A stretch of DNA of 64,000 bases from assembly GCF_016026235.1 (NCBI RefSeq), contig NZ_CP065613.1; one strand, 5' to 3'. Shown in pieces: positions 14,569 to 15,106 of this stretch. The notes beneath the pieces are model-generated. The model was not told the origin of the DNA, made no database searches, and was given only the letters and a program-made list of their open reading frames with translations. How positions within the stretch are numbered: position 1 is the first letter of the stretch; each line of letters opens with the position of its first letter. This DNA comes from Escherichia coli (lineage in GTDB: Bacteria; Pseudomonadota; Gammaproteobacteria; Enterobacterales; Enterobacteriaceae). The translations under genes were made by a program, and so were the position numbers.

Positions 14569-15106
14569 ATTGCACAGGCCGTAAGAACCAAACCACGACT
14601 GAATGAAACTGGACTGGCGCCAGCAAGCCTGTTCAGACTGGGGCTGAACTTTTCCGGACTCTGAAAGATTACCAATACTCATCGTCCATCCGCTTGCTTT
14701 AGGCTGACAGGTTCATAATCAACGCAAACCAGAGCTGTACAGGCTTGGGCGCGGCTTTCAAACCAGTCGTGATCACGGCAATCAATTTTGAACTCTGCTT
14801 AACGGACATTTCTGTATAACCCTTACGGCAACGAAAAACGCGAAGTTAAAATTTTAGAAACCCAAAAACGTGACATGACTAAGTTTAGATTTCAGGGGGG
14901 GAGATCAAAAAATTTCGCTCTGTGCCAGAGCGGACATTCACGGAGCTGGTTCATTACCAATGAGGTTGGGCTTTTGAGGATAAATCAATGATCAGACGCC
15001 AACGTAAATCAAAAGCAACCCTAGAACGGAATTGCTAATCCAGTTTCTGACCATCGATTTTTCTAAAAAGTGTGCGTTTGCTACTACTTAGGTAGGTGCA
15101 GCTTTC

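What the first reader, a model, noticed from the sequence alone, without database searches (positions are those of the whole stretch)
14569..15106. About 540 bp without a convincing ORF downstream of fecE
Seen: no ORF of 60 aa or more on the sense strand, a few short hairpins (e.g. cgctctg-tgc-cagagcg near 14918-14936), and small frames such as a 34-codon minus-strand ORF around 14715-14815. It could hold a small RNA or a decayed gene from the K-12 yjhV-side neighbourhood; I cannot tell which.
Basis: seen in the sequence. Interest (0 to 1): 0.2.

Follow-up and report, generated by a model that had tools for sequence, protein, structure and literature searches.

The report
Patchwork junk spacer after fecE
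The 540 bp after the iron-citrate transporter gene fecE is not a hidden gene but a patchwork of leftovers, and only the 170 bases next to fecE are better conserved than expected, for an unknown reason.

Summary
Window 14569-15106 has no plus-strand ORF of 60 aa or more, and it matches the unannotated K-12 fecE-yjhV spacer with three differences.

It is a mosaic of four pieces:
- **14569-14709 (with the relic's first 28 nt, to about 14737):** co-diverges with fecE in one clade of fec modules, at about a quarter of the synonymous rate. It shows no coding, covariation or folding signal.
- **14710-14792, minus strand:** a roughly 25-codon relic of an ISNCY-family (ISKpn21-like) transposase gene.
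- **14793-14941:** an orphan spacer. The part up to 14898 is shared with one other fec lineage.
- **14942-15125:** the native 3' flank of yjhV. yjhV is the C-terminal 44% of a 248-aa F420_oxidored-family NADP oxidoreductase gene, as seen in Raoultella and Pantoea.

No small ORF is conserved, Rfam gives nothing, and the hairpins fold no better than shuffled sequence. I found no transcript evidence in the papers I searched.

The "decayed gene" reading is partly right, but the decayed gene is a transposase, not yjhV. The small-RNA reading has no support. The only open point is the unexplained constraint on the first 170 nt. Ordinary; low interest.

The parts
13801..14568 (+). fecE (context): the last gene of fecABCDE; its stop codon ends at 14568.
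   Evidence: A 255-aa ORF. RefSeq annotation of the identical Nissle and K-12 sequence.
14569..14709 (.). Segment A: a fec-linked 3' flank that is noncoding but conserved. Together with the first 28 nt of the relic, the conserved block runs to about 14737.
   Evidence: It aligns at 75-78% with Kluyvera (L018), a K. variicola plasmid (L004) and a Salmonella plasmid (L005), whose fecE 4-fold sites are only 42-55% identical to the window's. 65% of 173 columns are invariant, against 24% of 4-fold sites (Fisher p = 1e-11). There is no 3-periodicity, and pN/pS is 0.5-1.2, with stops in most frames. There is no covariation, and the MFE z-scores are +1.5 and +0.9.
14710..14792 (-). Relic of an ISNCY-family (ISKpn21-like) transposase gene. 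About 25 codons around the region I take to hold the first catalytic aspartate, with stop codons on both sides.
   Evidence: 80% nucleotide identity to the ISKpn21 transposase gene, E = 4e-9 against 7.3 Gb of plasmids. tblastn aligns aa 147-171, FKIDCRDHDWFESRAQACTALVCVD, at 68% identity, E = 5e-7. NCBIfam NF033594 gives E = 9e-4. Local alignment z = 26.7 for the core, while the flanks are not significant. The same relic, with an internal stop, is in L016.
14793..14898 (.). Spacer of unknown origin that belongs to the fec side of the junction.
   Evidence: Shared at 77% with one other fec lineage, L016 (window 14703-14898). That is about the third-codon-position identity of fecE for this pair (0.80), so it is consistent with neutral decay. 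Nothing outside fec-yjhV loci matches it in E. coli genomes or plasmids.
14895..14901 (.). G-run of 7 here and 6 in K-12: a length polymorphism.
   Evidence: Alignment to K-12. Both lengths are common among E. coli genomes. The change breaks the frame of the plus-strand ORF 14875-14991: 38 aa here, 33 aa with a different C-terminus in K-12.
14906..14932 (-). It is terminator-like and sits in the 43-nt piece (14899-14941) where the fec-side and yjhV-side homologies meet.
   Evidence: Consensus scan. The local fold is -11.5 kcal/mol, z = -1.1, with 27 of 200 shuffles as good. Neither L016 nor Raoultella has it.
14942..15125 (-). Native noncoding 3' flank of the truncated oxidoreductase gene (yjhV).
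   Evidence: Homology to the Raoultella terrigena chromosome (L013, 84%) runs from inside the gene through the stop codon to window 14942. The Pantoea plasmid homologue stops matching at the stop codon. The second minus-strand hairpin, 15036-15014, is not preserved in Raoultella or K-12.
15126..15361 (-). yjhV (context): the C-terminal fragment of a 248-aa F420_oxidored-family NADP oxidoreductase gene. It is interrupted here by ISEc60.
   Evidence: K-12 pseudogene b4286. The K-12 fragment is 80% identical to residues 141-248 of Pantoea WP_010670613.1. Pfam PF03807 matches the missing N-terminal part. The rest of the fragment resumes after ISEc60, at about 16658.

Best explanation
The gap is a non-genic junction assembled from leftovers of at least three past DNA arrangements. 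It holds no gene of its own.

Reading left to right:
1. **14569 to about 14737.** This DNA has travelled with fecE since the ancestor of one clade of fec modules, the clade found on plasmids and islands. It most likely serves as the untranslated 3' end of the fecABCDE transcript (3'-end formation or stability). That role is an inference; what is shown is constraint without a coding or structural signal.
2. **14710-14792.** The stump of an ISNCY-type insertion-sequence transposase gene that already lay beside fecE in that ancestor.
3. **14793-14941.** About 150 nt of decaying spacer. It ends at the point where a rearrangement joined the fec block to a truncated NADP-oxidoreductase gene.
4. **14942-15125.** That gene's own 3' flank.

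The short ORFs and hairpins are incidental. The minus-strand hairpin plus U-run may stop read-through from the IS-rich side, but this is untested.
For: **Identity to K-12 and lack of annotation.**
- The stretch is the K-12 fecE-yjhV spacer.
- It is at least 95% identical in 2735 of 5426 complete E. coli genomes, and none of the listed records has a feature there.

**Piecewise homology with different partners and sharp breakpoints.**
- L004, L005 and L018 match up to about 14737.
- L016 matches to 14616 and again over 14703-14898.
- Raoultella L013 matches over 15362-14942.

**Transposase relic.**

**yjhV is a C-terminal gene fragment with its native stop.**

**Distribution on the fecE tree.** All lineages with any part of the flank fall on one side of the tree. 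Lineages with other neighbours fall on the other side.

**Small ORFs are not conserved.**
- A G-run frameshift breaks the plus-strand ORF.
- An indel and stop codons break the minus-strand ORFs in other lineages.

**No RNA signal.** No Rfam match, no covariation, and folding energies no better than shuffles.
Against: - Segment A diverges at only 0.17-0.42 of the 4-fold-site distance in all six lineage pairs. Something constrains it, and I could not show what.
- Terminator-like hairpins are somewhat enriched: 5 found against 1.2 expected.
- The minus-strand fold of 14790-15125 is marginally stable (z = -1.9, 4 of 100 shuffles as good).
- No transcript data were available, so absence of an RNA product is not shown.
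- The origin of 14793-14941 is unknown.
Confidence: 0.75

Rival explanations
1. Segment A (14569 to about 14737) is a functional RNA element of the fec transcript. It could be a 3'UTR that controls mRNA decay or termination, or a 3'UTR-derived small RNA cut from the fecABCDE mRNA that acts in iron homeostasis.
For: - A is conserved well above neutral expectation and co-diverges with fecE.
- It shows no coding signature.
- It sits directly after the stop codon on the sense strand.
- A small stem, TTCAG/CTGAA, keeps its arms while its loop varies.
Against: - There is no canonical terminator. The stem is 5-6 bp, and the U-run is broken in the other lineages.
- The covariation term is zero or unfavourable, and many predicted pairs are broken.
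- Folding energy is worse than shuffles.
- There is no Rfam match.
- The element is dispensable. It is internally deleted in L016, cut to 16 and 9 nt in L017 and L025, and absent from the other fec clade.
- Only four lineages are available.
Confidence: 0.15
2. An independent minus-strand small RNA is made from the right half of the gap. It would start at the promoter-like site inside yjhV (15187-15160) and end at the hairpin at 15036-15014 or the one at 14932-14916.
For: - There is a promoter-like match and two terminator-like hairpins with U-runs, all on the minus strand.
- The minus-strand fold of 14790-15125 has z = -1.9.
Against: - The promoter match is 9 of 12, and such matches are near chance level: 3 found against 1.4 expected.
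- The individual hairpins are not better than shuffles.
- The 15036-15014 stem loses a pair in K-12 and is not preserved in Raoultella.
- The two halves of the putative RNA have different evolutionary origins.
- There is no Rfam match.
Confidence: 0.06
3. One of the short ORFs encodes a small protein. The candidates are 14557-14682 (minus), 14699-14809 (minus) and 14875-14991 (plus).
For: - The first 19 codons of the 41-aa minus-strand ORF (MSIGNLSESG...) are similar in three other lineages.
- PGAP called a 50-aa version of the 36-aa ORF in one genome.
Against: - In the 41-aa ORF, the ATG is ATA in the Salmonella lineage, a stop follows codon 19 in Kluyvera, and a 1-nt indel shifts the frame in two lineages (stop and start-codon status read off that alignment by hand).
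- pN/pS is not below about 0.5 in any frame.
- The 36-aa ORF is an out-of-frame reading of the transposase relic and is absent from L016.
- The 38-aa ORF is frameshifted by the G-run polymorphism.
- No Pfam or NCBIfam family matches any of them.
Confidence: 0.03

Closest known systems
ISKpn21, an ISNCY-family insertion sequence (transposase family NCBIfam NF033594)
   Same: Window 14710-14788 is 80% identical in DNA to the ISKpn21 transposase gene. The translated match is 68% identical to aa 147-171, which I take to be the region around the first catalytic aspartate.
   Different: Only about 25 of 467 codons remain, and stop codons lie on both sides. The neighbouring DNA does not align to ISKpn21 on either side. 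I did not look for inverted repeats or target duplications. It is a dead fragment, not an insertion sequence.
K-12 fecE-yjhV intergenic spacer (NC_000913.3 4510134-4510689) with pseudogene yjhV (b4286)
   Same: The sequence is the same except for one extra G and two substitutions, with the same neighbours on both sides.
   Different: In this window yjhV is additionally split by an ISEc60 copy at 15362-16657, with an 11-bp target duplication.
3'UTR-derived small RNAs of enterobacterial operons (for example MalH from malG, PMC8081044)
   Same: Segment A is a conserved noncoding stretch directly after the last gene of a transport operon.
   Different: There is no strong terminator hairpin with a U-tail, no covariation, no Rfam family, and no transcript evidence in hand.
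F420_oxidored-family NADP oxidoreductase gene next to an HxlR-type regulator, as in a Pantoea agglomerans plasmid and the Raoultella terrigena chromosome
   Same: yjhV matches its last 108 codons. Window 14942-15125 matches its downstream flank in Raoultella.
   Different: The N-terminal dinucleotide-binding domain and the HxlR regulator gene are missing in E. coli. The gene is a stump cut off by IS911 in K-12.

Membership tests
ISNCY-family insertion sequence (ISKpn21-like) | Significant sequence similarity to an ISNCY transposase | tested here: met
   blastn gives 80% over 79 nt, E = 4e-9. tblastn gives E = 5e-7. NF033594 gives E = 9e-4, but at 18.5 bits against a curated cut-off of 250.
ISNCY-family insertion sequence (ISKpn21-like) | Intact transposase ORF (467 aa in ISKpn21) with a complete catalytic domain | tested here: not met
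   Only 39 codons lie between stops, and 25 of them align. No other part of the transposase is detectable by tblastn or DNA alignment.
ISNCY-family insertion sequence (ISKpn21-like) | Terminal inverted repeats and a target-site duplication | not tested
   No dedicated search was made for terminal repeats or target duplications. The repeat scan of 14400-15500 lists only short, imperfect inverted pairs. No ISKpn21 sequence outside the core aligns.
Rho-independent terminator | G+C-rich stem-loop directly followed by a U-run | tested here: inconclusive
   Minus strand 14932-14916 has a 7-bp stem with 5 G-C pairs and a 3-nt loop, followed by AAAUUUUUUG, so the U-run is offset by 3 nt. Stability is z = -1.1 against shuffles. 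No homologue is available to test conservation.
Known small-RNA or cis-regulatory RNA family (Rfam 15) | A match to a curated covariance model | tested here: not met
   The only hit over 13500-17000 is a plant microRNA model at E = 0.98, 21.7 bits against a gathering score of 107.
Structured noncoding RNA in general | Conserved secondary structure with compensatory changes, and stability above background | tested here: not met
   RNAalifold covariation terms are +0.12 and +0.62 kcal/mol, with 3-4 double changes against many broken pairs. Single-sequence z-scores are +1.5, +0.9, -1.9 and +0.3.
Structured noncoding RNA in general | A discrete transcript | not testable with these tools
   There is no expression data here. 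Literature searches found no mention of a transcript in this spacer.
Small protein gene | An ORF conserved in frame across lineages with an excess of synonymous change | tested here: not met
   Frames are broken by an indel, stop codons and the G-run. pN/pS is 0.5-1.2. Variable sites split 25/19/16 by phase.
F420_oxidored-family NADP oxidoreductase (PF03807): yjhV, next to the region | N-terminal dinucleotide-binding domain present | tested here: not met
   The Pfam domain lies at residues 2-93 of the 248-aa Pantoea protein. yjhV covers only residues 141-248.

The most novel reading that the evidence does not exclude
The first 170 nt after fecE are a so far undescribed functional noncoding element. 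It would be specific to the mobile clade of fec operons. It could be a 3'UTR-derived regulatory RNA, or a cis-acting 3'-end or stability element. It would have been kept under purifying selection while the operon moved between plasmids and islands of E. coli, Kluyvera, Klebsiella and Salmonella.
Probability: 0.15. Interest if true: 0.4.

Novelty: new member of a known kind. Interest (0 to 1): 0.13.

Why it matters
It matters little. The result tidies up one unannotated half-kilobase that about half of all E. coli genomes carry next to the fec iron-citrate uptake operon, an operon linked to mastitis strains (PMC5885034, PMC11390585).

It shows that fec and yjhV travel together because they are welded by an old rearrangement scar, not because the spacer encodes anything.

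It adds two annotation details:
- an ISNCY transposase relic beside fecE, which marks an old association of this fec clade with that IS family;
- the identity of yjhV as the tail of an NADP oxidoreductase gene.

The one thing worth a small experiment is the conserved 170 nt directly after fecE.

Tried and rejected
**RNA and protein family searches**
- Rfam at a permissive threshold gave nothing.
- Pfam and NCBIfam on the small ORFs gave nothing. A stop-masked minus-frame translation across the relic gave only the ISNCY hit.

**Extending the transposase relic**
- DNA local alignment against shuffles was not significant on either side.
- blastn against the whole ISKpn21 neighbourhood matched only the core.
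- A protein database search with the stop-masked translation returned only ORFs from this same locus.

**Collection scans**
- The metagenome scan with a two-block pattern from segment A returned two contigs about as diverged from the window as L004/L005 (77.6-77.7%), probably lineages already in hand.
- A profile HMM of segment A found no diverged copy in the other fec loci.

**Mobile-element and promoter ideas**
- I looked for inverted repeats linking the two ends of the fec block, which would point to a composite transposon. There are none, only two IS1 copies upstream of fecI.
- I compared segment A by eye with the FecI-dependent fecA promoter. The spacing does not fit.

**A recent-recombination explanation for segment A**
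- This is rejected. Third-position conservation does not rise toward the 3' end of fecE, and A's distances scale with the fecE distances in all pairs.

**Literature**
- Papers mention yjhV only as a marker that accompanies fec, and as a neighbour of an RNA-polymerase binding site upstream of it. None mentions a transcript in the spacer.
- I could not establish what the old K-12 gene name yjhW referred to. From the order of genes in a deletion list it lies on the IS side of yjhV, not in this gap.

Full report
**What is there.** fecE is the 255-aa ORF at 13801-14568. The next annotated feature in related genomes is a minus-strand gene fragment ending at 15126. It is called "hypothetical protein" in Nissle and is the pseudogene yjhV (b4286) in K-12. 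The finding's interval is therefore the spacer between two convergent gene ends.

It aligns to K-12 4510134-4510689 with three differences: a run of 7 G instead of 6 at 14895-14901, and two substitutions near 15021-15023. The same 538 nt are present at 95% identity or more in 2735 of 5426 complete E. coli genomes. They are also on 13 plasmid records, always beside fecE, and no feature is annotated there in the listed records. One genome carries a PGAP-called 50-aa "hypothetical protein", which is an extended form of the 36-aa minus-strand ORF.

**Check of the observation.** There is no plus-strand ORF of 60 aa or more. The hairpin is at 14916-14932. None of this exceeds what noncoding DNA gives by chance. 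The exception is a modest excess of terminator-like hairpins, 5 against 1.2 +/- 1.1 in shuffles over 14300-15500. Taken one by one, these hairpins fold no better than shuffled sequence.

**Piece 1, the transposase relic.**
- A sensitive DNA search of plasmids matched window 14710-14788 to the transposase gene of ISKpn21, an ISNCY-family insertion sequence, at 80% identity in over a thousand records.
- On the minus strand the stretch reads FKIDCRDHDWFESRAQACTALVCVD. This is 68% identical to ISKpn21 residues 147-171, with tblastn E = 5e-7.
- NCBI's ISNCY profile NF033594 matches the same residues at E = 9e-4, far below its cut-off for a whole protein.
- Stop codons lie on both sides.
- Against shuffles the core alignment has z = 26.7, while the DNA on either side does not align to ISKpn21.
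- It is a short dead fragment of a transposase gene.

**Piece 2, the yjhV side.**
- The yjhV translation matches "NAD(P)-binding domain" proteins on plasmids, best in Pantoea agglomerans at 79%.
- The K-12 fragment aligns to residues 141-248, the C-terminus, of that 248-aa protein at 80% identity.
- The Pfam domain F420_oxidored lies in the missing N-terminal part.
- In the Raoultella terrigena chromosome the gene is 84% identical in DNA. The homology continues through the stop codon for another 184 nt, to window 14942. In Pantoea it ends at the stop.
- So 14942-15125 is the native downstream flank of a gene whose front half was lost. In K-12 the cut is at the edge of IS911.
- The hairpin at 15036-15014 inside this flank loses a pair in K-12 and is not preserved in Raoultella.

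**Piece 3, the fecE side.** I fetched fec loci with FecE proteins 76-89% identical to this one.
- *Full flank.* In Kluyvera (L018), a K. variicola plasmid (L004) and a Salmonella plasmid (L005), homology runs past the fecE stop to about window 14737. That is into the first 28 nt of the relic, and it then stops.
- *Partial flank.* In L016 (fecE 89% identical) it covers 14569-14616, skips 14617-14702, and resumes over 14703-14898. It carries the same relic, with an internal stop codon.
- *Truncated flank.* L017 keeps 16 nt and L025 keeps 9 nt.
- *No flank.* Five other lineages have unrelated genes right after fecE and no trace of the flank, even with a profile HMM.
- *Tree.* On a neighbour-joining tree of fecE, every lineage with any part of the flank sits on one side and every lineage without it on the other.

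The flank and the relic were therefore beside fecE in the ancestor of that clade, and were later trimmed to different extents.

**Piece 4, the middle.** Window 14793-14898 is shared only with L016, at 77%. That is close to the third-codon-position identity of fecE for this pair (0.80), so it fits neutral decay. This is where the fec-side block meets the yjhV-side block. Nothing else in E. coli genomes or plasmids resembles 14789-14945.

**An unexplained point.** The first 170 nt after fecE are more conserved than neutral DNA should be.
- Among the window, L018, L004 and L005, 65% of 173 aligned columns are invariant. The figures for fecE are 33% of third positions and 24% of 4-fold sites (Fisher p = 1e-11).
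- The corrected distance of the flank is 0.17-0.42 of the 4-fold-site distance in all six pairs, and it broadly follows the ranking of the fecE distances.
- Third-position conservation does not rise toward the 3' end of fecE.
- These three results argue for co-divergence under constraint rather than one recent exchange.

The constraint does not look like coding. Variable sites fall 25/19/16 by phase. pN/pS is 0.5-1.2, with stop codons in most frames. A 1-nt indel splits the block. The 41-aa minus-strand ORF loses its ATG in one lineage and stops after 19 codons in another (my reading of the alignment).

It does not look like a stable RNA structure either. The RNAalifold covariation terms are slightly unfavourable on both strands. 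Folding energies are worse than shuffles. The only recurrent feature is a 5-bp stem, TTCAG/CTGAA, with a variable loop and a poor U-run.

This level of conservation is, from general knowledge, similar to that of alignable E. coli-Salmonella intergenic regions. I read the block as the untranslated 3' end of the fec transcript with some cis role. That is an inference. The element is dispensable in several lineages.

**What it is not.**
- Rfam finds nothing.
- The 38-aa plus-strand ORF is frameshifted by the G-run polymorphism.
- The 36-aa ORF is an out-of-frame reading of the relic and is missing in L016.
- No family matches any small ORF.
- A minus-strand promoter-like site inside yjhV, together with the two hairpins, could in principle define a 115-235-nt RNA. 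However, the promoter match is at chance level, the hairpins are not conserved, and the two halves have different origins.
- I found no paper reporting a transcript here. yjhV appears in the literature only as a marker that accompanies fec, and next to an RNA-polymerase binding site on its upstream side.

**Verdict.** The spacer is a scar. It consists of a fec-linked 3' flank, an ISNCY transposase stump, decaying spacer, and the tail flank of a truncated oxidoreductase gene. Novelty is at the level of annotation detail, and interest is low.

Noticed in passing
window 15362-16657 (target duplication 15351-15361 and about 16658-16668): An ISEc60 (IS4-like) copy is inserted inside the yjhV fragment, with an 11-bp duplication, GGGGTCAAAGC on the plus strand. 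Its transposase reads as two overlapping ORFs, 15939-16673 and 15382-15984, so it looks frameshifted. None of the top-listed complete E. coli genomes showed this exact insertion.
   Followed up: partly
window 4214-4981 and 6019-6786: There are two IS1-like copies, about 90% identical over 300 nt, in direct orientation upstream of fecI. About 1 kb lies between them, holding a 97-aa ORF at 5016-5309. K-12 is annotated with one IS1 next to fecI, from my own knowledge.
   Followed up: no
window 16658-17607: After ISEc60 the yjhV fragment resumes. It then runs into IS3-family (IS911-like) transposase remnants at 16769-17011 and 17008-17607, as in K-12. One G-to-A difference from K-12 lies in the resumed yjhV part, at about window 16732.
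   Followed up: partly
L013 3531-4748 (Raoultella terrigena) and L006 2028-3243 (Pantoea agglomerans plasmid): The intact relative of yjhV sits head to head with an HxlR-type regulator gene, near a dTMP-kinase-like gene, in both genera. In Raoultella the oxidoreductase gene itself is called as two pieces of 181 and 47 aa, so it may be decaying there too.
   Followed up: no
L016 3269-3512 (assembly GCA_050311775.1, labelled Erwinia amylovora): A fec operon 89% identical to the E. coli one, carrying the same ISNCY relic, sits in an assembly labelled Erwinia amylovora. That is an unexpected host for this mobile fec clade. I did not check the label.
   Followed up: no
L026 569-721 (E. coli strain 98206, NZ_CP173544.1): PGAP annotates a 50-aa hypothetical protein, WP_404999167.1, over the transposase relic in this one genome. 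It is an N-terminally extended form of the 36-aa minus-strand ORF.
   Followed up: no
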